From: a virus
Lineage: Duplodnaviria > Caudoviricetes
Virus record (IMG/VR): IMGVR_UViG_3300031555_010338
Length of the DNA stretch: 64,000 nucleotides
Strand: one strand, 5' to 3'
Part shown: piece by piece, positions 11,341 to 48,409 of the stretch
Numbering within the stretch: the stretch's first letter is position 1
Layout of the letters: each line of letters starts with the position of its first letter
Made by a program: the position numbers and the translations under genes
The notes under the pieces: model-generated
The model's database searches: none
What the model saw: the letters and a program-made list of their open reading frames with translations, nothing else
Told to the model about the DNA's origin: nothing

Positions 11341-12083
11341 TGAAGTTCGTTGTAGGTGCAATTATCGTAGTTGTTCTTCTGGCGCTCATCATTTTCCCCG
11401 AATTTCGTAAGAAGCTGAAAGTCCTGGTCGGCGGTTTTCTGAATGTCTTTGTCGAGGATGCTGCCAAGACTCCTGAGGGTGCAAACGCCGTTTTCAATCA
11501 GGCTATCGAAGAAATGCAGGACAAATACAACCGTGCCGCAAATACTCTGAATAAGCTGTCTGGTGAGCTGAAACATGCCGAAGCAGCGGTTGACAGCATT
11601 ACCAAGGAGATCAAAGAGGTGGAGGCAACCTGCGAACGACTGGTAAAGGCTGGTCAGTTGAACGATGCCGAGGTTTATGCTTCCCGCCGTGCCGAGCTTA
11701 TTACCGAGCTTGAGCAGAAGAAAGAGTGTATTGTTCGCCTGAAGCCTATGGTTGCGGATGCGACCCAGATCTATGACACTCTTGGCAAGAAGCTCCGTGA
11801 GCTGAAGCGCAACAAGAAGGAAACCGTTGAGAAGCTGAAGATGAACGGTCAGTTGAAGGATCTGCTGGGTGATCTGGATGAGCTGAAAAAGGATACCGCA
11901 ACGGCCAAGATGCTGGATGCTGTCATGGATGGCTCTAAGGATCTCCAGAAAGAGGTCGATGGCGCTCGTGTTGTTCACGAGAACCGCGCATCTACCAAGA
12001 TTGCTCGTGCGGAGCAAAAGGCCGCTCAGTTGAAGAGCGACGAATACCTTGAATCTCTCAAGAAGAAGTACGGAGGAAAGTAA
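11340..12083 (+). CDS. PspA/IM30-like coiled-coil protein with N-terminal TM
   Basis: TM helix, then long heptads with a PspA-like pattern ending LESLKKKY. Confidence 0.6.
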   Translation: MKFVVGAIIVVVLLALIIFPEFRKKLKVLVGGFLNVFVEDAAKTPEGANAVFNQAIEEMQDKYNRAANTLNKLSGELKHAEAAVDSITKEIKEVEATCERLVKAGQLNDAEVYASRRAELITELEQKKECIVRLKPMVADATQIYDTLGKKLRELKRNKKETVEKLKMNGQLKDLLGDLDELKKDTATAKMLDAVMDGSKDLQKEVDGARVVHENRASTKIARAEQKAAQLKSDEYLESLKKKYGGK

Positions 12084-12085
12084 AG

Positions 12086-13672
12086 ATGAAACTGAGACTT
12101 ACTAAGGCCGGTCGTGCCGTCCTGTTCATTGCCATTATCGTTGTGTTGGGTGTGGGTGGCTTCTTTGGCTATCAGCATTTCGCCGGTGACGGCGCAAGCC
12201 TGATCGACCAGTTCCAGAGCGATAAGCTTCCCAGCAACGATACAAATGCTGGTGTTACCGACACCGCAAAGCCCAATAATAACACCGCTCAGAATATCGA
12301 CACCAATGACACCACCATCAATCTGTCTCTGGACGAGTGGATTGGTTGGAAGCCCATTATTGATGCCAATCAGGGCTTGACTACCCAGCCTGGTTCTATC
12401 TTTGATAAGCTTGGTCTGAAGGTCAATATCAATATTATCAACGATGCAGATGCTTCCAGCAATGCTCTGATTAAGGGTGATCTGAATGCAGCCGGCTATA
12501 CGCTTAACCGTACCGCATTCCTTTCTGGTAAGTTCAGTGATGCCGGCCTGGATGTTGTGATGCCCGTGTTCACCAATTACTCTGATGGCGGCGATGGCAT
12601 TATCGCTCTGAGCAAGTACAACACCATTGAGAGCCTTGTTGATGCCAAGATCGGTGTACCCAAGTTCAGTGAGGCACAGTCCCTTGTTATCTGGTTTGTG
12701 AATAAGTCCGATCTGCCCGATGCAGATAAGCAGAAGATTATCGACAATCTGATCCTGCTGGACGATGCTGAGCAGACCGGCCAGGCATTCTTCGCAGGCA
12801 GTCTGGACGTTGCTGCAACTTGGCAGCCCTACTTGTCCAACGCAGAGAATAGCACCAATTCCCACATTCTGTTCGATACCACTTCCTCTAACAAGCTGAT
12901 TATGGACGGCATTTTGTTCCGCTCCGATTTTGCACAGGCACATCCCGACATGATTTCCGCCTTTATCGATGGCATTTTCCAGGCCGAGGATATGTACGAA
13001 ACCGAGTTTAAGTATATCCGTAAGGTAATGCCTATGTTCGCTGACTCTTCTGATGAAGACATTCTGAGCATGTGCGGTGACGCTGGCCTGATGGGTTATA
13101 CCGAGAATGTAAACGCTCTGGAAAACGACTGCCCCACCGTGTATGCAGACATGTGTGCAATCTGGGAGAGCATTGGCGAGACTGTTGACAGAACTCTTGG
13201 TGCAACTCTGTTTGACACCAGCTATGTAAAGACCCTTTCCAATAACTATTCTTCTCTGCCCCAGCAGTCTACCTTTGAGATTACCGAAGAGCAGAAGGAA
13301 AGTATCAAGGATGTTGCTGCTCTTCTGACCAAGAGCGCCACCATCAACTTTATCCCCGATACTGCGAAGTTCCTGGATAATGCAGAGGCTGATGCTGTTC
13401 TGAGCGAGTTCGTTGAGATGGCTAAGACTCTGGATGGTACTATCATCCAGATCGAGGGCAATATCAACTCCAACAGCAACACCGAGGGCGGTATGAAGCT
13501 GTCCGAGGAACGCGCAAAGACCGTTAAGAACTACTTTGTGGCAAACGGCATTGATCCCAACCGCATTATCGTAGTCGGTAACGGCAATACAAAGATGGTC
13601 GCTGATCCCAATGGCCCCAATGCGGAGCAGAACCGAAGAACCGATATCTTCTTCAAGACGATTGAAAACTAA
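12086..13672 (+). CDS. NMT1/THI5-type substrate-binding protein fused to an OmpA/MotB-like peptidoglycan-binding domain
   Basis: N-terminal TM; EWIGW, SDGGDGI, AATWQPY; LSEERAKTV...NRRTDI. Confidence 0.8.
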   Translation: MKLRLTKAGRAVLFIAIIVVLGVGGFFGYQHFAGDGASLIDQFQSDKLPSNDTNAGVTDTAKPNNNTAQNIDTNDTTINLSLDEWIGWKPIIDANQGLTTQPGSIFDKLGLKVNINIINDADASSNALIKGDLNAAGYTLNRTAFLSGKFSDAGLDVVMPVFTNYSDGGDGIIALSKYNTIESLVDAKIGVPKFSEAQSLVIWFVNKSDLPDADKQKIIDNLILLDDAEQTGQAFFAGSLDVAATWQPYLSNAENSTNSHILFDTTSSNKLIMDGILFRSDFAQAHPDMISAFIDGIFQAEDMYETEFKYIRKVMPMFADSSDEDILSMCGDAGLMGYTENVNALENDCPTVYADMCAIWESIGETVDRTLGATLFDTSYVKTLSNNYSSLPQQSTFEITEEQKESIKDVAALLTKSATINFIPDTAKFLDNAEADAVLSEFVEMAKTLDGTIIQIEGNINSNSNTEGGMKLSEERAKTVKNYFVANGIDPNRIIVVGNGNTKMVADPNGPNAEQNRRTDIFFKTIEN

Positions 13673-13697
13673 CATAGCCTAAACAGGCATGGAAGTA

Positions 13698-13758
13698 ACG
13701 GCACTTACAGCAACTTTACTACACATAATTTGGGTTTATGATCGTGAAAATGTGCCGT
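13698..13758 (+). ncRNA. ACAGCAA-motif RNA unit 1, displaying a Pro(UGG) anticodon stem-loop
   Basis: ACGGCAC/GTGCCGT closing stem; ACAGCAA 13707-13713; CATAA-TTTGGGT-TTATG. Confidence 0.55.
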
Positions 13759-13779
13759 GTTGGAATACGAAATATAATA

Positions 13780-13836
13780 AAGGCGCTAACAGCAATGTTA
13801 CAAAACATGGACTTGAAATCTATTCAAATGCGCCTT
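13780..13836 (+). ncRNA. ACAGCAA-motif RNA unit 2, displaying a Ser(UGA) anticodon stem-loop
   Basis: AAGGCGC/GCGCCTT stem; ACAGCAA 13789-13795; ATGGA-CTTGAAA-TCTAT. Confidence 0.55.
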
Positions 13837-13847
13837 GCAAAGAAAAT

Positions 13848-13940
13848 GGAGCAGTAAGCCTAACTGGTAAGATAGTCGCCTGCTAAGCGACGAGTAGCCG
13901 CGTAAGCGGTGTGCAGGTTCGAGTCCTGTCTGCTCCGCCA
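13848..13940 (+). tRNA. tRNA-Ser(GCT)
   Basis: GGAGCAG/CTGCTCC acceptor; GTCGC-CTGCTAA-GCGAC; long variable arm; GGTTCGAGTCC; G-CCA end; weak D stem. Confidence 0.85.
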
Positions 13941-13944
13941 TCAA

Positions 13945-14110
13945 GAGCAAGTAGGCAAAGAGAAAGCCTATTCATATCGACGAGCAATAACTGTAACACC
14001 TCCCTTTACTCACCATACATCCCCCTCCCTATCTCCTTTGTTCCCTGCTTCGTCGCATGAATACAAAATAGATTCGTCTATTGCATAGGAGCGTTGCCTA
14101 TGCCTTGCTC
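13945..14110 (+). ncRNA. Structured RNA with a C/U-rich loop carrying anti-Shine-Dalgarno-like sequences
   Basis: GAGCAAG/CTTGCTC closing stem with four internal helices; loop contains CACCTCCCTTT, CCCCCTCCCT and ATCTCCTTT. Confidence 0.5.
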
Positions 14111-14123
14111 GATAAAAAAATCT

Positions 14124-14210
14124 GCTGGTGTGGTGGAATTGGCAGACACATCGGACTTAAGTTCCGATGCTCGTAAGGGCGTGTGGGTTCAAGTCCCACC
14201 GCCAGCACCA
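14124..14210 (+). tRNA. tRNA-Leu(TAA)
   Basis: GCTGGTG/CGCCAGC acceptor; TCGGA-CTTAAGT-TCCGA; variable arm; A-CCA end. Confidence 0.92.
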
Positions 14211-14215
14211 AACAC

Positions 14216-14329
14216 GGGAGCGTCTGGGCGGCAGCTTTTTACAGTGTATAGGACGGCGGACACTTACAGCAACTTTACAAAAAGAGTTATGGAAAAACTT
14301 AGCTTGCGGTTCGATTCCGCAGCTCCCCA
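14216..14329 (+). ncRNA. tRNA-like unit 3 (GGA anticodon) with ACAGCAA insertion
   Basis: GGGAGC/GCTCCC acceptor; T arm TGCGG-TTCGATT-CCGCA; GAGTT-ATGGAAA-AACTT; AGTGT/ACACT hairpin + ACAGCAA 14266-14272. Confidence 0.55.
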
Positions 14330-14396
14330 AAGCCGTTAATTTTCTTCAAAGTCCGGTTAATTTTATTGGCAGTCGATGATAAGACATAATAGACAT

Positions 14397-14512
14397 GCGG
14401 AAGTAGCTCAGTCGGTAGAGCAACAGTAAAAAAAATGTGTCGTGTATATGACGCACACAGCAATTTCAAATATGGGAACTGCGTGTCGGAGGTTCGAGTC
14501 CTCCCTTCCGCG
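14397..14512 (+). ncRNA. tRNA-like unit 4 (anticodon uncertain, possibly TGG) with ACAGCAA insertion
   Basis: GCGGAAG/CTTCCGC acceptor; canonical D and T arms; TGTGTCGT/ATGACGCA hairpin + ACAGCAA 14457-14463 in the anticodon region. Confidence 0.65.
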
Positions 14513-14519
14513 CGAATAT

Positions 14520-14636
14520 GCCAGGGTAGCTCAGTTGGATAGAGCGCGTAAATAACGCGACTTGTACAAGACGCTAACAGCAATTTCTTTTGGTCTGTTA
14601 AACCCGTGGTCGTGGGTTCGAGTCCCACCCCTGGCG
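14520..14636 (+). ncRNA. tRNA-Asn(GTT)-like unit 5 with ACAGCAA insertion in the anticodon stem
   Basis: GCCAGGG/CCCTGGC acceptor; G73; CG[insert]GGT-CTGTTAA-ACCCG; ACAGCAA 14577-14583. Confidence 0.7.
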
Positions 14637-14643
14637 CATTTAT

Positions 14644-14760
14644 ACGGTGGTCGTCAAGTGGTAAGACAGCGGCCATATAAAATGTGACCGTAAGGCTCAC
14701 TAACAGCAAAGTTATGAAGCCAAGCCGCCACCGCAGGTTCGATTCCTGCCCACCGTTCCA
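14644..14760 (+). ncRNA. tRNA-Gly(GCC)-like unit 6 with ACAGCAA insertion in the anticodon loop
   Basis: ACGGTGG/CCACCGT acceptor; T73-CCA; GCGGC[insert]GCCAA-GCCGC; ACAGCAA 14703-14709. Confidence 0.7.
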
Positions 14761-14985
14761 CGGGGATAAGCTGACTTCGCCATTCAAACAGCCCCTTATT
14801 AAACTGGTAGAAATGGCCTCTGGTACAGCAGAAGTAAAGAGGTATAGCCGGCGATGAGTCGTAGTAACCGGCGAGGTTAAGAGCTGACGCATGGGAACTG
14901 TAACTCCCTGGGCATCGTGAAAAGTCATCCACGGCCACACGGATGGTACGATGTACCGCTCCTGCATAGGTGCGCATATGCAAAT

Positions 14986-15070
14986 CGAGACACTTACAGC
15001 AACATTAAAGGTTAAAGTAGTTGGTAGCATTGCCGATGCGAGAAGGTTCAAGTCCTTCACTCGTGTCTCG
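14986..15070 (+). ncRNA. ACAGCAA-motif unit 7 enclosing D-loop-like and T-arm elements
   Basis: CGAGACAC/GTGTCTCG stem; ACAGCAA 14996-15002; AGTTGGTA; GAAGG-TTCAAGT-CCTTC. Confidence 0.55.
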
Positions 15071-15082
15071 TAAACCTCCTTT

Positions 15083-15188
15083 AAGACACCTGCAGCAAAT
15101 AACAATGGGAGTCGTTTTAATTGGTAAAGACGGCTGGATACCAGTCATGCGGGTTCGAGTCCCGTCTTCTATTAAAATGGCGTGTCTT
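15083..15188 (+). ncRNA. GCAGCAA-motif unit 8 enclosing a tRNA mimic with a 3-nt anticodon loop
   Basis: AAGACAC/GTGTCTT stem; AATGGGAG/CTTCTATT acceptor-like helix; D arm; GCTGG-ATA-CCAGT; GCGGG-TTCGAGT-CCCGT. Confidence 0.6.
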
Positions 15189-15245
15189 GGGGAATCGCGT
15201 TTCTTTTATTGGAATTAGCAAAACAATTTAAGGAGGAACTAAGAA

Positions 15246-16763
15246 ATGAGCAATTTTATGTCTGCGGTCAAGAACACTCTGAACAATGAGTGTAACTACT
15301 CCATGACGGAGAATGGTGCGCTGGGCTATCGCACCACCGGCAAGGAGCTGTTGGATCTCAACTTTGCGGTTGCTTCTCTGCGCCGCGCAACTCCCAGCGA
15401 AATCGCAAACCGATTTACAAAGGCTTTCTTTGAGGACAAGATCGTTGCGATGAAGTGGCTGTTCTTCGCCCGTGATGTTCGTGGTGGCCTGGGTGAGCGC
15501 CGCCTGTTCAGAACCATCCTGTCTAATATGGCTCACACAAACCCCGAATACATCGTACCTCTGCTGGAACTCGTTCCTGAGTATGGCCGCTACGATGATC
15601 TGTGGTGTCTGCTCGATACCGAGCTGCAGAAGGATGTTCTGGATGTGATTTCCAAGCAGCTTACCGAAGACATCCAGAACTTGAAGGAAGGCAAGGGTAT
15701 TTCCCTGCTGGCAAAATGGCTTCCTTCTCCCAATGCTTCTTCTAAGACTACCAAGCGGTATGCCAAGAAGATTTACAAGCACATGGGCGTTTCTGAGCGA
15801 GACTACCGCAAGGCAATCTCTCGTCTGCGTACCAAGCTGGATGTCGTCGAGAAGAAGATGTCCGCTAAGCATTGGGGTGATATCGCATATGAGGCTGTCC
15901 CCTCTCGTGCCAACCTGATCTACAACTCCGCTTTCCTTCGTAACGACGAAGAGCGCCGCCGTAACTTCCTCTCCAAGCTGGAAAAGGGCGAAGCAAAGAT
16001 CAACGCATCCACCCTGTTCCCTCACGACATTGTACATCAGTATGGCCGAAAGAGTAGTGCTGATGCTACTTTGGAAGCTCTGTGGAAGGCTCTGCCTGAC
16101 ACCGTTCAGGGCTGCGGCAACACTATTGTTGTGGCAGACGGTAGTGGTAGCATGAGCGTCCGCGTTGGTGGAACTGATGTTTCTGCTCTGGAAGTTGCTA
16201 ATGCACTGGCAATTTACTTTGCCGAGCGTTCTTCCGGTCAGTTCAAGGATAACTACATTACCTTCTCTGAGCGTCCTAAGCTCGTCAATCTGAGCAATGG
16301 AAAGAACCTGCGTGAGAAGATCCAGATCGCTCGTCGCCATAGCGAGGTAGCAAACACCAATATCGAAGCTGTCTTCGATCTGATTTTGACTACCGCAAAG
16401 CGCGAGAATATGGCGCAGGAGGATATTCCTCAGAACATCCTTATCATCTCTGACATGGAGTTTGATGGCTGCGCGGTTTGCACTACGAACCGTCGTCCTG
16501 ATGCCCGTCTGTTCCAGGTGATTGCCAAGCGTTACGAAGACGCTGGCTATAAGCTGCCCCGCCTGGTGTTCTGGAATGTGAATAGCAGAAGTGCTACCAT
16601 TCCCGTTATCGAAAACGACATGGGTGTTGCGCTGGTAAGCGGCTTCAGCACCAATATCGTCAAGATGGTCATGAGCGGCAAGACCGATCCCTATGAGTGC
16701 TTGCTGGAAACTCTGAACACCGAGCGTTATGCACCGATTGGTGAGGCTCTGAAGAGTCTGTAA
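15246..16763 (+). CDS. DUF2828-family protein (TROVE/Ro60-like helical domain + vWA)
   Basis: TENGA, RDVRGGLGER, EYGRYDDL, LAKWLPS, vWA DGSGSM, ISDMEFD, VFWNV, LVSGFS. Confidence 0.85.
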   Translation: MSNFMSAVKNTLNNECNYSMTENGALGYRTTGKELLDLNFAVASLRRATPSEIANRFTKAFFEDKIVAMKWLFFARDVRGGLGERRLFRTILSNMAHTNPEYIVPLLELVPEYGRYDDLWCLLDTELQKDVLDVISKQLTEDIQNLKEGKGISLLAKWLPSPNASSKTTKRYAKKIYKHMGVSERDYRKAISRLRTKLDVVEKKMSAKHWGDIAYEAVPSRANLIYNSAFLRNDEERRRNFLSKLEKGEAKINASTLFPHDIVHQYGRKSSADATLEALWKALPDTVQGCGNTIVVADGSGSMSVRVGGTDVSALEVANALAIYFAERSSGQFKDNYITFSERPKLVNLSNGKNLREKIQIARRHSEVANTNIEAVFDLILTTAKRENMAQEDIPQNILIISDMEFDGCAVCTTNRRPDARLFQVIAKRYEDAGYKLPRLVFWNVNSRSATIPVIENDMGVALVSGFSTNIVKMVMSGKTDPYECLLETLNTERYAPIGEALKSL

Positions 16764-16770
16764 TCGCAAT

Positions 16771-25906: not shown

Positions 25907-27313
25907 GTGAAGACATTGTATTCTGCATTTGTTACCAGAATTAAAAACCTGAGAAAACATACGAATGCAGATCGTCTGATGTGTGGCGAGTGTTTTGGCA
26001 ATACGGTTATCGTTGGCCTGGACACTCAGCCAGACGAGCTTGGTGTTTACTTCCCCGTAGACGGCAAGCTTGGTTTGGAGTTTGCGCAGAAGAATGATCT
26101 GCTCCGCCGCAAGGATGAAAATGGCAAACCTGCTGGCGGTTATCTCGATCCTGAGAAGAGAAACATTAAGGCTCTGAAGCTCCGTGGAGAAAAGAGCGAC
26201 GGCCTGTTTATGCCTCTTGTTTGTCTGGCAGATTACACCGATATTGCCAGTTTGAAAGAGGGTGACACCATTACAGTGTTGAATGGTGTAACGATTTGTG
26301 AGAAATATATCCCCCGCGCAAGTAGTAGGGGGGGGTGTCATTTTGATGGTAATCGCACTCGCAAGCGCAAAGATCCTGTGTCTCCCCTGTTCATGGAACA
26401 TGCAGACACGGAACAGCTTGCCTACAATCTTACATCCTTCCGTGCTGGCGACCAAATCGAGGTCACTTTGAAGATGCACGGCACTTCTCAGAGAACCGGC
26501 TATCTTCCCGTTCTGAGTGGATATAAGCGCACCATTATGGATAAGCTGCGCAAGCGTTCTGGCACACCGATTTATGATTGGGGCTATGTCTCCGGTACTC
26601 GTCGTGTAGTTCTGGACGATTATGAAGGCGGCTACTATGGGAGCAACGCCTTCCGTGAGCAGCACAGCAAGATCTTTGAAGGCAAACTTCATAAGGGCGA
26701 GACGGTATATTATGAGGTTGTTGGTTTTACTCAGGACGGTACGCCTATCATGGCTTCTTGTGATAACAAGAAAGTAGGCGATAAGGAATTTACTAAACAA
26801 TACGGAGATGTTACGACATTCTCTTATGGCTGCAAGCCTGGACATTTGGGCGGACTTATCAAAGATAAGGAAATTGTGGATAACGAAGCTGTTGTGTATC
26901 CGCAGTCTGACATCTATGTGTACCGTATGACCATGACCAATGAGGACGGCGATGTAGTTGAGTACACGCCCGATTTTATGCGTTACCGTTGTGAGCAGAT
27001 GGGCGTTAAGTGTGTTCCCGTATTTTACAAGGGCTACATTCCCGAATACTTCATCCTGCCCGATGATGTTGGAAGTCCCGCCGCAATCGATGCTGGTGCA
27101 TATGTAAAGAAGCTGGCTGAGGATTTCTACGACGGCGCTGATCCTGTTGGTAAATCCCATATCCGTGAGGGTGTTGTAGTTCGGATCATCAACCGTCCTA
27201 AGTTCACCGCTTACAAGCATAAGAACTTTGCGTTTAAGGTGCTGGAGGGCATTATCAAGGATGTTGCTACCGCACCTGACATGGAAGAGGCTCAGGAACA
27301 GGAGGCTGCATAA
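25907..27313 (+). CDS. RNA ligase (DRB0094/Rnl2-like, N-terminal OB-fold)
   Basis: HTNADRL, LRGEKSDG, motif I KMHGTS, motif IV REGVV, motif V KHK. Confidence 0.8.
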   Translation: MKTLYSAFVTRIKNLRKHTNADRLMCGECFGNTVIVGLDTQPDELGVYFPVDGKLGLEFAQKNDLLRRKDENGKPAGGYLDPEKRNIKALKLRGEKSDGLFMPLVCLADYTDIASLKEGDTITVLNGVTICEKYIPRASSRGGCHFDGNRTRKRKDPVSPLFMEHADTEQLAYNLTSFRAGDQIEVTLKMHGTSQRTGYLPVLSGYKRTIMDKLRKRSGTPIYDWGYVSGTRRVVLDDYEGGYYGSNAFREQHSKIFEGKLHKGETVYYEVVGFTQDGTPIMASCDNKKVGDKEFTKQYGDVTTFSYGCKPGHLGGLIKDKEIVDNEAVVYPQSDIYVYRMTMTNEDGDVVEYTPDFMRYRCEQMGVKCVPVFYKGYIPEYFILPDDVGSPAAIDAGAYVKKLAEDFYDGADPVGKSHIREGVVVRIINRPKFTAYKHKNFAFKVLEGIIKDVATAPDMEEAQEQEAA

Positions 27314-27784: not shown

Positions 27785-28589
27785 TGCACTTGAGCGTGAC
27801 CAGAAAATCATGCGTCGGCTTGCTGAACATCTTGATTCGGTGAAGGATAAACATCCAGAATGGGTCGGTATCTTTCTCCAAGGCTCTCAGAATTACAACC
27901 TGGACTATGAGGGGAGCGACATTGATTCAAAGCTGATTGTCCTCCCCTCTTTCGAGGATTTTGTACTTAACAGAAAGCCTTATAGCTACACGCACATCAT
28001 GGAAAACGATGAGCATGTGGATGTAAAGGATATTCGCTTGATGTTTGAGTGCTTCCGTAAGCAAAATATCAACTTTGTTGAGATCCTTTTTACAAAGTAT
28101 CGCATTATGAACCCTAAATACGAGGTGTTGTTCAAGCCCGTTTTGGATGCTCGTGAACTCGTTGGACGATACAACAACTATGCCGCTATGAACTGTATGG
28201 TTGGTGCGGCGATGGAGAAGCGCAAGGCTTTGTGCCATCCTTATCCCGCCACTATGGAGAAGATCGAAAAGTTTGGCTACGATCCGAAGCAACTTCATCA
28301 TATCCTGCGCTTTGATGAATTTAATGAGCGTTGGCTTGCCGGTGTTCTGTATGAACACTGCTTGATTTCTGAGCAGCGTGACTATTTTCGATCTGTAAAG
28401 TTTGGTTGTCACACTTTAGAAGAAGCAATCGAAATTGCAGACGAAACGATTGAGCGTATGAAACGACGTAAAGACGAGTACATGGCTGCTACCCCCCCCA
28501 TTATCAATCGTGATGTGGAGCAAATCTTGAACTCAGCTCTTATCGAGCTGTTCAAATACAATTTTCAGTGTGAGATTGGAGGTGTGTAA
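27771..28589 (+). CDS. Nucleotidyltransferase (Pol-beta superfamily)
   Basis: GSQNYNLDYEGSDIDSK. Confidence 0.8.
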   Translation: MKMIDALERDQKIMRRLAEHLDSVKDKHPEWVGIFLQGSQNYNLDYEGSDIDSKLIVLPSFEDFVLNRKPYSYTHIMENDEHVDVKDIRLMFECFRKQNINFVEILFTKYRIMNPKYEVLFKPVLDARELVGRYNNYAAMNCMVGAAMEKRKALCHPYPATMEKIEKFGYDPKQLHHILRFDEFNERWLAGVLYEHCLISEQRDYFRSVKFGCHTLEEAIEIADETIERMKRRKDEYMAATPPIINRDVEQILNSALIELFKYNFQCEIGGV

Positions 28590-28590
28590 C

Positions 28591-29520
28591 ATGGAAAATA
28601 AGCAACCTATCTTTTTCATGCTTGTTGGTCTTCCGTACAGTGGAAAATCTGTCCAGGCCGAAAAGCTGAAAGAACAGTATGGAGCTGTTATCCATTCCAG
28701 TGATGCCATCAGAGCGGAAGTCCTTGGCGATGTTCAGGATCAGAATAATAATGGAAAAGTGTTTGAAGTTCTTCACCGCCGCGTCTTTGATGATCTGTCT
28801 GCCGGCAAGAATGTCGTGTACGATGCTACCAACATCAGTTATAAGCGCCGCATGGATGCTTTGCAGCGTATCAACAAAATCGATTGTCAGAAGGTCTGCC
28901 TTTTCATGGCAACTCCCTTTGATGTCTGTATTGAGCGCAGCAAGAACCGTGAGCGCGTTGTTCCTTATGAGGTTGTCGAGCGCATGTATAAAACGATCTG
29001 GATTCCCAATGTGTATGAGGGTTGGGATCATGTTGAGTTGATTTATCCCGAAGGTTTTAAGCCTTACAATCTTCGTGACCTGTTCAACGGAGAGAATGGT
29101 TTGAACTACATCAATCAGGACAATCCTCATCACGCTCTGACTGTCGGACATCATTGCATTACTGCATATGGCCTTGTCCACAACGAGTCTCCTGAATTGC
29201 AGGAAGCAGCTCTTCTGCATGATATCGGTAAGCCTTTTACGAAGTCTTTCGTAAATAGCAAGGGTGAAACTACTGAGGTTGCCCATTATTACGACCATCA
29301 TCATGTTTCCGCATATGACAGTTTGTTTTATGGTGATTTCAGTCTGGATCGTCTTTACATCGCCGCTATCATCCAGTGGCATATGAGGCCGTTTGAACTT
29401 GAGCGTCTTGGTGACTCCAGACGTGCAAAAGAAAAGTTCAGAGATCTTGTTGGATATAAGCTGTACCGCGACATTGAGCGTCTGCATGTGGCAGATATCG
29501 AAGCGAAAGGCTTGAAGTAA
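28591..29520 (+). CDS. Polynucleotide kinase (AAA_33) + HD phosphohydrolase
   Basis: GLPYSGKS, SSDAIR, DATN; HHALTVGHH, LHDIGK. Confidence 0.85.
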   Translation: MENKQPIFFMLVGLPYSGKSVQAEKLKEQYGAVIHSSDAIRAEVLGDVQDQNNNGKVFEVLHRRVFDDLSAGKNVVYDATNISYKRRMDALQRINKIDCQKVCLFMATPFDVCIERSKNRERVVPYEVVERMYKTIWIPNVYEGWDHVELIYPEGFKPYNLRDLFNGENGLNYINQDNPHHALTVGHHCITAYGLVHNESPELQEAALLHDIGKPFTKSFVNSKGETTEVAHYYDHHHVSAYDSLFYGDFSLDRLYIAAIIQWHMRPFELERLGDSRRAKEKFRDLVGYKLYRDIERLHVADIEAKGLK

Positions 29521-46106: not shown

Positions 46107-48409
46107 TTACAGAAATCAGAAAACGAGACGGCAGAGTTGAGCCGTTTGATGCTGGCAAGATCGTTAGTGCCATTACAAAAGCAATGGTACAGGCCGGCGA
46201 GGTTGATGAGGATGTCGCTCTTCGCATTGCAAGCAAGATCGCAAACTCCAACCAGCTCTCCGGTACAGTAGATGTAGAGCAGATTCAAGATATGGTTGAA
46301 GACGGTCTGATGGGTAGCCGCTGTAAGAAGACAGCAAAGGCTTATATCAAATACCGTGAGAGCCGAAACCAGGAGCGTCAGAAAAACAACGATCTCAACA
46401 AGCAGATCGAGGACATTCTGCTCTGCAACAATGTCCAGAATCAGAATGCCAATGTTGATGAGCATTCTTTTGGCGGAAGAAAGTTTGAAAGTGCGAATGT
46501 GCTGCATAAAAACATCGCTTTGAATGTATTCATTCGCCCTGAGGTAGCACAGGCACACAGAGAGTCCCGCATCTATCTGCATGACCTTTCCGAATATGAT
46601 ATCGGATCTCACAACTGTCTTTTTGCAGACCTTCAGCGTCTGCTTAACAATGGTTTTGCTACCAGAAACGGCGATGTCCGCCCAGCTAACAGCTTCTCTA
46701 CTGCATGTCAGTTGATTGCTGTTATCTTCCAGATTCAGAGTCAGGTTCAGTATGGTGGCGTTGCTTCTTGTCATCTGGACTATGACCTCGCATCCTTTGT
46801 CACAAAGACCTTCTTCAAGAAGTATGTTATGGCATTGGTGAAGTCCAGCCAGGATTTCGCGGACACCGATTTCTCCGCTATGACAGATGAAGAGATCGAC
46901 GCATTTATTGATAAGGTTAAGCCAGATGTTCTGGCTAAGGCCGGTTTAACCGAAAAGGACATTCATCTTGACAACAAGAGCAGCCTTGATAGTGTCATGT
47001 ACAATCAAGCATACTTTGACATGATGTGTGAGGGTAAGCAGGCCGCACAAAGCCTTTACCACAATCTGAATACTCTGGAGAGTCGTGCCGGTTCTCAGAT
47101 TCCATTTACATCCATCAATTTCGGTACGGATACTTCTACCAGTGGTCGCTTGGTGTCTCGCTGGCTCATGTCCGCAAGTCTTGATGGCATCGGCCAGTAT
47201 CATTTGACTCCCATCTTCCCCATCAGTATTTTCAAGTATAAGAAGGGTGTTAATGCTCGTCCTGGCGATCCGAACTACGACATCAAGAAGTTGGCGATCA
47301 AGTCTCTGTGTAAGCGCATTTATCCCAATATTGTAAATTGCGACTTCTCTCAGAACATCGAAGATCCCAATAATCCCGATACCGAGATGGCGACAATGGG
47401 TTGTCGTACCATGATGGGATACGACAGAAATGGCCTTGGCTATTCCAAGCTTGGCCGTGGTAACGTCTGCCCTACTACTATCAACCTGCCGAAGATCGGT
47501 ATCAAACACGGTATTTGTTTGGGTGAGCGCAGCAAGCCCGATCTGGATGGTTTCTGGAAAGAGCTTGATGAAGTTCTGTACCTTACAGAAATGTCCTTGG
47601 TTGATCGCTTCTACCATGTATGCAAGCAGTCTGTTGCCTCTGCAAAGTTTATGTATGGCAACGGAACTATCGCTGACTTCGATCAGGCTTCTTTCAAGGG
47701 TATCTATGAGGCTATGAAGCACGGAACCCTGGCTGTTGGCTATATTGGCATTGCGGAAATGTGTCAGGCACTCTTTGGCAAAGACCACTCTGAGGACGAT
47801 GAGGTTTGGAAGTTTGCTCTGAGTGTTGTTGAGCATATCTACAAGTATTGCCAGAGTGCAAGCGAAAAGCACAACCTGAACTTCTCTTGTTATGCGACAC
47901 CCGCTGAAAACCTTTGCAAGACATATGCGATGGCTCTGAAAAAGGAGTTTGGCGAAATCCCACGGGTTACTGATCGTGAATACATTACCAACTCCCACCA
48001 TGTTCCCGTATGGCAGAAGGTTTCCATTTACCGCAAGTTGGAGCTGGAAGCTCCCTTCTGCAAGTATCCTACTGGCGGCTGCATTACCTACATTGAGCTG
48101 GAAAGCTCTGTCATGAAGAACGAAAAGGCCGTTGAGGACATCATTGACTATGCAATGTCTCTTGATATTCCTTACCTGGCTTTTAACTTCCCCATCGACT
48201 CTTGCTTGAAGTGTGGCTATCAGGGAGAAATCAACTACAACTGCCCCAAGTGTGGTAATACTGAGATCCAGCGCCTCCGCCGCGTAACAGGATATCTGAC
48301 AACAGACTATCGCAATTTCAACGCCGGCAAGATCAAAGAGTGTCTGGATCGTGTAAAACATAGCAACTATACCGACTTCTTGCCCACGAATGGAGACGAC
48401 GCAGAGTGA
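46103..48409 (+). CDS. nrdD: Anaerobic ribonucleoside-triphosphate reductase
   Basis: ATP cone KRDG, MGCR, TPAE, CxxC...CxxC, RRVTGY. Confidence 0.97.
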   Translation: MITEIRKRDGRVEPFDAGKIVSAITKAMVQAGEVDEDVALRIASKIANSNQLSGTVDVEQIQDMVEDGLMGSRCKKTAKAYIKYRESRNQERQKNNDLNKQIEDILLCNNVQNQNANVDEHSFGGRKFESANVLHKNIALNVFIRPEVAQAHRESRIYLHDLSEYDIGSHNCLFADLQRLLNNGFATRNGDVRPANSFSTACQLIAVIFQIQSQVQYGGVASCHLDYDLASFVTKTFFKKYVMALVKSSQDFADTDFSAMTDEEIDAFIDKVKPDVLAKAGLTEKDIHLDNKSSLDSVMYNQAYFDMMCEGKQAAQSLYHNLNTLESRAGSQIPFTSINFGTDTSTSGRLVSRWLMSASLDGIGQYHLTPIFPISIFKYKKGVNARPGDPNYDIKKLAIKSLCKRIYPNIVNCDFSQNIEDPNNPDTEMATMGCRTMMGYDRNGLGYSKLGRGNVCPTTINLPKIGIKHGICLGERSKPDLDGFWKELDEVLYLTEMSLVDRFYHVCKQSVASAKFMYGNGTIADFDQASFKGIYEAMKHGTLAVGYIGIAEMCQALFGKDHSEDDEVWKFALSVVEHIYKYCQSASEKHNLNFSCYATPAENLCKTYAMALKKEFGEIPRVTDREYITNSHHVPVWQKVSIYRKLELEAPFCKYPTGGCITYIELESSVMKNEKAVEDIIDYAMSLDIPYLAFNFPIDSCLKCGYQGEINYNCPKCGNTEIQRLRRVTGYLTTDYRNFNAGKIKECLDRVKHSNYTDFLPTNGDDAE

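What the first reader, a model, noticed from the sequence alone, without database searches (positions are those of the whole stretch)
13724..13823. Isolated anticodon stem-loops (Pro-UGG and Ser-UGA) displayed without a tRNA body
Units 1 and 2 each hold a 5-bp stem with a 7-nt loop: CATAA-TT TGG GT-TTATG and ATGGA-CT TGA AA-TCTAT. Both have pyrimidine 32, U33 and purine 37, and the Pro loop has the G37 seen in real tRNA-Pro. Neither has D, T or acceptor arms, so neither can be aminoacylated. Inference: they are anticodon decoys for anticodon nucleases (PrrC/RloC, VapC-type, PARIS AriB) or for tRNA-modifying enzymes. Unit 8 is the complement, a tRNA elbow with only a 3-nt anticodon loop.
Basis: partly seen in the sequence, partly recalled or inferred. 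Interest (0 to 1): 0.8.

Follow-up and report, generated by a model that had tools for sequence, protein, structure and literature searches.

The report
Anticodon-loop mimics on Ro60-partner handle RNAs
The two bare anticodon hairpins are real and conserved, but each is the cargo of a ~60-nt small RNA closed by a conserved "handle" that travels with a Ro60-like ring-protein gene just downstream, so they look like an undescribed Y-RNA-like tRNA mimic of gut phages; a decoy role is untested.

Summary
Observation confirmed. CATAA-TTTGGGT-TTATG (13724-13740) and ATGGA-CTTGAAA-TCTAT (13807-13823) exist as described and lack D, T and acceptor arms.

They are not free hairpins. Each sits 10-11 nt after the motif WW-ACAGCAA, inside a 57-61-nt RNA closed by a covarying 7-bp helix (13698-13758 and 13780-13836).

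Eight such "handle" RNAs fill 13698-15188. They lie directly upstream of a DUF2828/DUF7788 gene (15246-16763) whose model folds like Ro60/TROVE.

Handle and gene co-occur in 23 viral and about 70 bacterial-genome loci. The link also holds in the reverse direction, starting from the RNA motif.

Orthologous units keep the same 7-nt loops while their stems covary. For unit 2, 72/72 cells pair and 4 of 5 ASL pairs change on both sides. Across loci the anticodon varies (UGA, UUU, UUG, UGG, CAU and others). One lineage has lost the canonical unit-1 loop.

The handle matches the motif and architecture published for Dictyostelium Class I RNAs.

Most likely these are Y-RNA-like tRNA mimics bound by the Ro60-like protein. 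A decoy role for anticodon nucleases is plausible but untested.

This scan has already found the same system on other DNA (at least 56 genomes). I found no paper describing it.

The parts
13698..13758 (+). Handle RNA unit 1 (61 nt). Helix 13698-13704 / 13752-13758 (ACGGCAC/GUGCCGU), linker UU, motif ACAGCAA 13707-13713, 10-nt spacer, anticodon-arm mimic 13724-13740 (loop UUUGGGU, Pro-UGG type), then AAAAU before the 3' strand and a G after it.
   Evidence: Orthologues L076 and L077 keep the loop on a compensated stem.
13780..13836 (+). Handle RNA unit 2 (57 nt). Helix 13780-13786 / 13830-13836 (AAGGCGC/GCGCCUU), linker UA, motif 13789-13795, 11-nt spacer, anticodon-arm mimic 13807-13823 (loop CUUGAAA, Ser-UGA type), then AAAU before the 3' strand and a G after it.
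   Evidence: Alignment A2: 72/72 cells paired, 5 pairs with changes on both sides. Loop identical to the phage tRNA-Ser(UGA) loop.
13848..13940 (+). Ordinary tRNA-Ser(GCU), directly after unit 2. The order unit 1, unit 2, tRNA-Ser is kept in relatives.
14124..14210 (+). Ordinary tRNA-Leu(UAA).
14216..14328 (+). Handle RNA unit 3. tRNA-like, with acceptor stem, T arm and anticodon arm (GAGUU-AUGGAAA-AACUU, GGA). The handle hairpin plus ACAGCAA (14266-14272) occupies the D-arm position. Orthologues show GGA, GCA or UGA.
14397..14512 (+). tRNA body (Rfam 49.8 bits) carrying a permuted handle (hairpin then ACAGCAA, 14457-14463) on the 5' side of the anticodon loop; xGG (Pro-like).
14520..14636 (+). 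tRNA body (45.2 bits) with the permuted handle inserted between positions 28 and 29 of the anticodon stem. Without the insert the arm reads CGGGU-CUGUUAA-ACCCG (Asn GUU). Orthologues show GUU, UGU or UUU.
14644..14757 (+). tRNA body (44.8 bits) with the permuted handle in the anticodon loop; loop remnant AAGCCAA (GCC). Most orthologues have A rather than U at position 33.
14986..15070 (+). Handle RNA unit 7. An 8-bp closing helix and ACAGCAA (14996-15002) enclose a D-loop-like segment, a small hairpin and a perfect T arm. Orthologues carry a CAU anticodon arm here.
15083..15188 (+). Handle RNA unit 8. Closing helix AAGACAC/GUGUCUU and variant motif GCAGCAA (15092-15098) enclose a cloverleaf-like body with a 3-nt loop in the anticodon position.
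15246..16763 (+). DUF2828 + DUF7788 protein (505 aa). It has a Ro60/TROVE-like ring fold with a vWA domain and an intact MIDAS motif (D298, S300, S302). Probable protein partner of the handle.
   Evidence: Pfam. AF2 model, pLDDT 77.8. The 13 matches with Foldseek E <= 0.001 are all Ro60/TROVE chains, E 5.5e-9 to 3.2e-5. Invariant residues.

Best explanation
Units 1 and 2 are two small RNAs (61 and 57 nt) of a family that shares one handle. The handle is a 7-bp helix joining the two ends, followed on the 5' strand by two A/U letters and the single-stranded motif ACAGCAA. The 3' strand is preceded by AAU and followed by G.

The handle is most likely the binding site of the Ro60-like ring protein (DUF2828/DUF7788) encoded 1.4 kb downstream, as the conserved stem of a Y RNA is for Ro60.

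The rest of each RNA is cargo. In units 1 and 2 the cargo is a copy of a tRNA anticodon arm (Pro-UGG and Ser-UGA loops), placed 10-11 nt after the motif. Other units carry whole or partial tRNA bodies.

The particle would therefore present tRNA look-alike parts, here the anticodon loop alone, to factors that read anticodon loops. A bait or decoy role in the phage-host conflict over tRNAs is the leading but unproven candidate.

Shown here: the RNA structure, the conservation of the anticodon-arm cargo, the genomic link to the gene, and the Ro60-like fold. Inferred: binding of the RNA to the protein, expression and ends of the RNAs, and the biological role.
For: Handle is real.
- 58 of 84 distinct motif copies have a perfect 7/7 partner for the heptamer that ends 2 nt before ACAGCAA. 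Control offsets give 6-15 of 84.
- 136 distinct helices (95 closed, 41 hairpin) give the consensus AAGRCRC-WW-ACAGCAA ... AAU-GYGYCUU-G.
- The same module occurs in two topologies, closing the RNA or as a capped hairpin inside tRNA bodies.

Link to the protein gene.
- The motif occurs 99 times on the gene's strand against 12 on the other in the 2.5 kb upstream, in 23 viral loci.
- It occurs 134 against 11 times in 70 bacterial-genome loci, peaking in the last 250 nt before the gene.
- A 42%-identical homologue in an unrelated 85-kb phage has the same array.
- Reverse test from the RNA: of 112 IMG/VR matches to AAGGCGCWWACAGCAA, 59 have the closing strand. 27 of those have a DUF2828 homologue in the few kb held, against 0 of 53 matches without the closing strand.

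Protein.
- Pfam DUF2828 (1.8e-34) and DUF7788 (1.5e-45), plus a weak Ro60-vWA match.
- The 13 matches with Foldseek E <= 0.001 are all Ro60/TROVE chains (Xenopus, human, Deinococcus Rsr, Thermus phage phiLo), TM about 0.5 over about 500 columns.
- The MIDAS residues are invariant.

Cargo is selected: under the observation check.

Precedent.
- Ro60 genes of bacteria and phages have Y RNAs with tRNA-like domains next to them (PMC4201824).
- Phage phiLo has two Y-like RNAs upstream of its Ro60 gene (PMC12135203).

Context.
- The phage carries 29 tRNAs.
- It carries an AAA_33 kinase + HD gene (28570-29520) and an RNA-ligase-like gene (25907-27313, below Pfam threshold).
Against: - No expression, end-mapping or binding data exist.
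- The anticodon-arm stems are AU-rich and barely stable on their own. In unit 2 a competing hairpin is predicted to be slightly better.
- One lineage (L066/L068/L081) has a non-canonical 12-14-nt loop in unit 1.
- About 77% of short handle RNAs have no canonical anticodon hairpin, so the anticodon arm is not essential to the family.
- Five or six further handle RNAs sit about 50 kb from the gene, in the main tRNA array, so adjacency is not absolute.
- The handle differs from the Ro60-binding stem of known Y RNAs, and the protein does not match Pfam TROVE by sequence. The analogy to Ro60-Y RNA therefore rests on fold and gene order.
- The orthologues used are related sequences, so the counts are not independent events.
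Confidence: 0.55

Rival explanations
1. Free decoys. The two hairpins act on their own as competitive substrates or inhibitors of host anticodon nucleases (PrrC/RloC, VapC, AriB) or tRNA-modifying enzymes, with no protein partner.
For: - The loops are canonical and equal real tRNA loops.
- The anticodon varies between loci while the loop shape is kept.
- The phage shows tRNA-conflict hallmarks: 29 tRNAs and kinase+HD and ligase-like genes.
- In the handle-bearing tRNA at 14520, orthologues show GUU, UGU and UUU. These are the three tRNAs reported as AriB targets (PMC12409363). The three anticodons differ from each other by only one or two letters, so this may be coincidence.
Against: - The hairpins never occur bare. 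They always sit at a fixed distance inside the conserved handle, which is tied to the Ro60-like gene.
- Many anticodon nucleases need more of the tRNA than the anticodon arm (general knowledge, not tested here).
- The isolated stems are very weak.
Confidence: 0.1
2. Relic cargo. The handle is the functional part, as protein binding site or autoregulatory element of the DUF2828 operon. The anticodon arms are leftovers of tRNA genes into which the handle was once grafted, with no function of their own.
For: - Most short handle RNAs have no anticodon arm.
- Minimal 36-37-nt handle RNAs with a 14-nt cargo sit right before the gene in relatives.
- The unit-1 loop has degenerated in one lineage.
- The handle is found in all stages, from full tRNA bodies to fragments.
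Against: - Changes on both sides of the pair keep the anticodon stems while the 7-nt loops stay identical.
- The loop CUUGAAA recurs on five different stems.
- The spacing from the motif is fixed at 9-12 nt.
- The excess over shuffled cargo is 28 against 1.7.
Confidence: 0.15
3. Intron or split-tRNA pieces. The handle is a new tRNA intron or processing signal, and units 1 and 2 are halves that are spliced or joined to other pieces to make working tRNAs.
For: - In the tRNA at 14520 (and in a tRNA-Ile of L024), removing the insert restores a perfect anticodon arm.
- The phage has a ligase-like gene and a kinase+HD gene.
Against: - Units 1 and 2 have no acceptor, D or T parts, and no matching partner halves were seen.
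- In the tRNAs at 14397 and 14644 and most of their orthologues, no single excision yields a 7-nt loop with U33.
- The same handle closes RNAs with no tRNA-like cargo at all.
- No RtcB was found in the phage.
Confidence: 0.03
4. Chance hairpins in a non-coding spacer.
For: - Such hairpins arise about 0.5-0.7 per kb per strand by chance.
- Folding z-scores of the isolated stems are near zero.
Against: Conservation with covariation, enrichment over shuffles and fixed geometry.
Confidence: 0.02

Closest known systems
Ro60 (Rsr) with Y RNAs: bacterial and phage YrlA (Rfam RF02553; PMC4201824) and Thermus phage phiLo Ro60 with Yrl1/Yrl2 (PMC12135203)
   Same: - A ring protein of Ro60/TROVE + vWA fold.
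- Small RNA genes sit directly upstream on the same strand.
- The RNAs combine a conserved stem, the presumed protein site, with a tRNA-mimicking module.
   Different: - The protein is DUF2828/DUF7788, not Pfam TROVE, and has no sequence match to any PDB chain.
- The RNA handle is a helix plus ACAGCAA, not the bulged helix / CGAA stem of Y RNAs.
- Rfam YrlA scores 27.9 bits against a gathering score of 69, and only across two neighbouring tRNAs, not at units 1-2.
- There are 8 RNAs in the array plus 5-6 elsewhere, rather than 1-2.
- YrlA mimics the T/D/acceptor part of tRNA. Units 1-2 mimic only the anticodon arm, which YrlA does not mimic.
Class I RNAs of dictyostelid social amoebae (PMC7919456; search pattern GTTGRCCTTACAGCAA ... 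GTCAACTG in PMC5054030)
   Same: - 42-65-nt RNAs with a short stem joining the 5' and 3' ends.
- A conserved motif ending in UUACAGCAA directly after the 5' strand, then a variable remainder.
- Start AAG and a short UG-containing tail after the stem.
- Units 1 and 2 are 61 and 57 nt. They match 10/11 and 9/11 of the motif, and unit 2 starts AAG and ends CUU-G.
   Different: - Class I RNAs are eukaryotic, have their own DUSE promoter, and were reported as unique to Dictyostelia.
- Their known binding protein is the RRM protein Rnp1A, not a Ro60-like protein.
- Anticodon-arm cargo has not been described for them.
- Whether dictyostelids encode DUF2828 was not tested here.
tRNA and phage tRNA arrays that counter anticodon nucleases (e.g. 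T5 tRNAs versus PARIS AriB; PMC12409363)
   Same: The 7-nt loops equal real anticodon loops. The units lie inside a phage tRNA cluster.
   Different: There are no acceptor, D or T arms, so the units cannot be charged or decode. They cannot replace a cleaved tRNA.

Membership tests
Handle RNAs linked to DUF2828 (no published name) | About 7-bp helix whose sequence varies while pairing is kept | tested here: met
   Unit 1 ACGGCAC/GUGCCGU and unit 2 AAGGCGC/GCGCCUU. 58/84 motif copies have a 7/7 partner against 6-15/84 at control offsets. 136 distinct helices.
Handle RNAs linked to DUF2828 (no published name) | WW-ACAGCAA directly 3' of the 5' strand; AAU before and G after the 3' strand | tested here: met
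   Unit 1: UU-ACAGCAA, AAAAU, G. Unit 2: UA-ACAGCAA, AAAU, G.
Handle RNAs linked to DUF2828 (no published name) | Encoded near, and on the strand of, a DUF2828/DUF7788 gene | tested here: met
   Gene at 15246-16763, 1.4-1.5 kb downstream on the same strand. General association shown.
Handle RNAs linked to DUF2828 (no published name) | Physical binding of the handle to the protein | not testable with these tools
   No RNA-protein prediction or experimental data available.
Dictyostelid Class I RNA | 42-65 nt, with a short stem joining the 5' and 3' ends | tested here: met
   61 and 57 nt with a terminal 7-bp helix; definition in PMC7919456.
Dictyostelid Class I RNA | 11-nt motif CCUUACAGCAA next to the 5' strand of the stem | tested here: met
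   Unit 1 ACUUACAGCAA (10/11) and unit 2 GCUAACAGCAA (9/11); motif taken from PMC5054030.
Dictyostelid Class I RNA | Conserved start AAG and end CUGU; DUSE promoter about 60 nt upstream; dictyostelid host | tested here: not met
   Unit 2 starts AAG and ends CUU-G; unit 1 starts ACG. There is no eukaryotic promoter context. The host is a phage of gut Clostridia, going by relatives in Oscillospiraceae genomes. The true RNA ends are unknown.
Y RNA / YrlA (Rfam RF02553) | Score at or above the Rfam gathering threshold | tested here: not met
   The only hit is 27.9 bits against 69, at 14484-14545, spanning a T arm and the next D arm. Nothing at 13698-13836.
Y RNA / YrlA (Rfam RF02553) | Encoded next to a Ro60 orthologue | tested here: inconclusive
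   The neighbour has a Ro60-like fold but belongs to Pfam DUF2828/DUF7788, not TROVE.
Y RNA / YrlA (Rfam RF02553) | tRNA-like domain with T and D arms | tested here: not met
   Units 1-2 have only an anticodon arm. Other units of the array do have T arms.
tRNA | Cloverleaf with acceptor, D, anticodon and T arms | tested here: not met
   No ARAGORN or Rfam tRNA at 13698-13836.
Ro60/TROVE proteins (for the neighbouring gene) | HEAT-repeat ring plus vWA domain with MIDAS | tested here: met
   The 13 matches with Foldseek E <= 0.001 are all Ro60/TROVE chains. DxSxS, T and D are invariant. Caveat: this is a predicted model, pLDDT 77.8.

The most novel reading that the evidence does not exclude
Phages of gut anaerobes use a Ro60-like ring protein loaded with interchangeable handle RNAs that display single tRNA parts. 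Units 1-2 display the anticodon loop alone, acting as programmable baits that capture or blunt host enzymes that read or cut anticodon loops. The same handle in Dictyostelium Class I RNAs would mean these 20-year-old orphan RNAs belong to one ancient RNP family spanning phages and eukaryotes.
Probability: 0.2. Interest if true: 0.9.

Novelty: new variant of a known kind. Interest (0 to 1): 0.75.

Why it matters
If the handle RNAs bind the DUF2828 protein, this is a second, widespread branch of the Ro60/Y-RNA world. More than 567 homologous stretches were found in bacterial genomes alone, and the atlas protein clusters are mostly viral.

Its RNAs are modular: one constant handle with swappable tRNA-derived cargo.

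Units 1-2 are the simplest case, an anticodon loop with nothing else. That makes them a clean probe for what the particle recognises.

It would add a new kind of player to the phage-host conflict over tRNAs. It would also give a testable protein partner and function to the Class I RNAs of social amoebae, whose role is unknown.

Tried and rejected
- Exact 16-mer CTTACAGCAACTTTAC in IMG/VR: 55 hits, essentially all chance matches in coding DNA. The exception was L024, which turned out to be a second phage with the same system.
- blastn of the array against GenBank phages: only tRNA-Leu similarity, no related array.
- Profile search of the protein against PDB sequences: no meaningful hit. The Ro60 likeness is visible only by fold.
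Replaced by a 14-base pattern.
- The Burroughs and Aravind 2016 RNA-repair paper is not held. The ROT/TROVE repair-platform idea is cited only through PMC7824862.
- RtcB and CCA-adding enzyme families: no match in the phage.
- Sigma-70 promoter and terminator scan of the array: not above the shuffle expectation.
- Intron reading of the handle: rejected for units 1-2, and weak for the tRNAs at 14397 and 14644, where no excision gives a U33 loop.
- A DNA-level reading (IS200/IS605-type end, or a promoter) was considered. It was dropped because the helix covaries and occurs in two RNA topologies.

Full report
**1. What is in the sequence**

The window is the 3' part of a 143.8-kb IMG/VR virus record.

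Between an OmpA-domain gene that ends at 13672 and a gene that starts at 15246 lies a 1.5-kb non-coding stretch. ARAGORN finds two ordinary tRNAs there, Ser-GCU at 13848-13940 and Leu-UAA at 14124-14210. Rfam adds three tRNA bodies with inserts of about 50 nt in the anticodon arm, at 14397, 14520 and 14644.

- CATAA-UUUGGGU-UUAUG at 13724-13740.
- AUGGA-CUUGAAA-UCUAU at 13807-13823.
- Both have Y32, U33 and R37, and no tRNA is called over them.

**2. They are not isolated**

Eight places in the stretch share the motif ACAGCAA; one is the variant GCAGCAA.

In units 1 and 2, the seven bases that end two letters before the motif are complementary to seven bases 50-55 nt downstream: ACGGCAC/GUGCCGU and AAGGCGC/GCGCCUU. 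Each hairpin therefore lies inside a closed RNA of 61 or 57 nt, at 13698-13758 and 13780-13836.

The same module closes units 7 and 8 around tRNA fragments. In a permuted form, a capped hairpin followed by ACAGCAA, it sits inside the three tRNA bodies and inside the tRNA-like unit 3.

Five or six more closed copies lie in the phage's main tRNA array of 27 genes, about 50 kb away and outside the window.

**3. The handle is a conserved RNA structure**

- Of 84 distinct motif copies from this phage and 24 related loci, 58 have a perfect 7/7 partner for that heptamer. Heptamers at control offsets give 6-15 of 84.
- Over all loci, 136 different helix sequences give the consensus AAGRCRC-WW-ACAGCAA ... 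AAU-GYGYCUU-G.
- Rfam 15 holds no matching family at E <= 1.

**4. The handle travels with a Ro60-like gene**

The gene at 15246-16763 is Pfam DUF2828 + DUF7788, with a faint Ro60-vWA match.

An AlphaFold model built on 14 homologues has pLDDT 77.8. The 13 matches with Foldseek E <= 0.001 in the PDB are all Ro60/TROVE chains: Xenopus and human Ro60, Deinococcus Rsr, and Thermus phage phiLo Ro60. Their E-values run from 5.5e-9 to 3.2e-5, and most have a TM-score near 0.5 over about 500 columns. The MIDAS residues of the vWA domain are invariant.

Association from protein to RNA:
- In 23 viral loci found with the protein, the motif occurs 99 times on the gene's strand in the 2.5 kb upstream, against 12 on the other strand.
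- In 70 bacterial-genome loci the figures are 134 against 11, peaking in the last 250 nt before the gene. These are mostly gut Clostridia, and also Treponema.
- An unrelated 85-kb phage whose protein is only 42% identical has the same array in front of its gene.

Association from RNA to protein:
- 112 IMG/VR matches to AAGGCGCWWACAGCAA split into 59 with the closing strand and 53 without.
- A DUF2828 homologue lies in the few kb held for 27 of the 59 and for 0 of the 53.

**5. The anticodon arms are selected cargo**

- Unit 2. Orthologues carry UUGAA-CUUGAAA-UUCAA, or UCAGA/UCAAA-CUUUGAC-UUUGA. On alignment A2 all 72 cells pair, and four of the five anticodon-stem pairs show changes on both sides. 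Slid controls pair at 11-52%.
- Unit 1. L076 and L077 keep UUUGGGU on the stem UAUGU/ACAUA, which differs from the window's stem at three of five pairs.
- All loci. Over 104 loci, 28 of 120 distinct short handle RNAs hold a canonical non-T-loop anticodon hairpin, against 1.7 +/- 1.2 in shuffled cargo. CUUGAAA recurs on five different stems and CUUUUAA on three. The hairpin starts 9-12 nt after the motif in 20 of the 28.
- Anticodons seen: UGA, UUU, UUG, UGG, CAU, GGA and others.
- Match to real tRNAs. Unit 2 equals the loop of the phage's own tRNA-Ser(UGA). Unit 1 differs from its tRNA-Pro(UGG) loop only at position 38. The CUUUGAC and CUCAUAA loops of relatives equal the phage's tRNA-Gln and tRNA-Met loops.

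**6. Caveats**

- The stems are AU-rich and weak: -1.7 kcal/mol and z about 0 for unit 1 alone.
- In unit 2, RNAfold prefers a competing hairpin.
- Canonical-looking hairpins are common by chance, about 0.5-0.7 per kb per strand.
- In the L066/L068/L081 lineage the unit-1 loop is 12-14 nt.
- Three quarters of short handle RNAs have other cargo or none.
- The orthologues compared are related sequences, so the counts are not independent events.

**7. How it most likely works**

By analogy with Ro60 and its Y RNAs, the handle is the protein-binding site and the cargo is what the particle presents. Y RNA genes lie beside Ro60 genes in bacteria and phages and carry a tRNA-like domain (PMC4201824; PMC12135203).

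Units 1-2 present only the anticodon loop. Possible readers of such a loop:
- anticodon nucleases;
- anticodon-loop modification enzymes;
- anticodon-binding domains of synthetases;
- T-box leaders of the Firmicute host;
- the ribosomal decoding site.

The context points to the conflict over tRNAs.
- The phage has 29 tRNAs.
- It has an AAA_33 kinase + HD gene and an RNA-ligase-like gene 10-14 kb downstream.
- TROVE proteins have been described as RNA-repair platforms with a tRNA-like partner (PMC7824862).

Binding, expression and function are all inferred.

**8. Comparison with what is known**

- The units are not tRNAs.
- They are not YrlA: 27.9 bits against a gathering score of 69, and the hit lies elsewhere in the array.
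- The handle differs from the Ro60-binding stem of Y RNAs.
- The handle does match the Class I RNAs of dictyostelids. Those are 42-65 nt, have a terminal short stem, carry the motif CCUUACAGCAA after the 5' strand, start with AAG and end with CUGU (PMC7919456; PMC5054030). They were reported as unique to Dictyostelia and have no known function.
- I found no paper on DUF2828 in phages or on its RNAs.

**9. Earlier notes of this scan**

Other agents have reported the same handle-plus-DUF2828 system in at least 56 other genomes, with similar conclusions. I took from them two leads, the Ro60-like partner and the Class I RNAs, and checked both here.

**10. Verdict**

- This is a new variant of the Ro60/Y-RNA kind of system.

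Noticed in passing
window 14397-14757: Three tandem tRNA bodies (Pro-like, Asn GUU, Gly GCC) each carry the permuted handle in the anticodon arm. Only the Asn one regains a perfect arm if the insert is removed (insert between positions 28 and 29). In the other two, most orthologues have A rather than U at position 33, which argues against a simple intron. Orthologues of the Asn unit show GUU, UGU or UUU, the three tRNAs reported as AriB (PARIS) targets (PMC12409363). This may be coincidence.
   Followed up: partly
window 25907-27313 and 28570-29520: Possible RNA healing-and-sealing pair. One is a 468-aa protein with a sub-threshold RNA_ligase match (PF09414, 24.1 bits against a cut-off of 27) plus a PHA02142 OB fold. 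The other is a 316-aa AAA_33 kinase + HD phosphohydrolase protein. No RtcB or CCA-adding enzyme was found in the phage.
   Followed up: partly
window 12026-13675(-) versus 12086-13672(+); 15228-16769(-) versus 15246-16763(+): Long mirror ORFs lie on the opposite strand of real genes. Cause: many genes have no TTA, CTA or TCA codons at all (0 of 506 codons in the DUF2828 gene; 14, 19 and 17 of 6078 codons overall). The codon-aligned antisense frame therefore has no stops. This is a codon-bias artefact, not overlapping genes.
   Followed up: yes
genome G000:C1:42600-49600, minus strand (outside the window): The main tRNA array of 27 genes holds 5-6 further closed handle RNAs, with motifs at about 46999, 46932, 46123, 44635 and 42863. 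The one at 46123 shows a Lys-UUU-type loop CUUUUAA closed by an A-C mismatch. tRNA-Ile(UAU) and tRNA-Gln(UUG) are unusually long, 92 and 91 nt.
   Followed up: partly
window 14758-14816: About 60 nt right after the third handle-bearing tRNA are conserved at 76-84% in a dozen related loci and can form a GGGG...CCCC hairpin. There is no Rfam match. The remainder up to 14985 is not conserved.
   Followed up: partly
window 13941-14123: The C/U-rich spacer between the two ordinary tRNAs is partly conserved in L087 and L089. Another first-stage note suggested an anti-Shine-Dalgarno RNA here; this was not examined.
   Followed up: no
L110, L112, L116, L117, L123, L137 (Lachnospiraceae-type loci), 80-310 nt upstream of the gene: In distant homologues (45-52% identity) the array is reduced to one or two tRNA bodies with a permuted handle whose hairpin is nearly constant (GUCUUG..AAAGACUU). 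A few loci use ACAGCAG instead of ACAGCAA.
   Followed up: no
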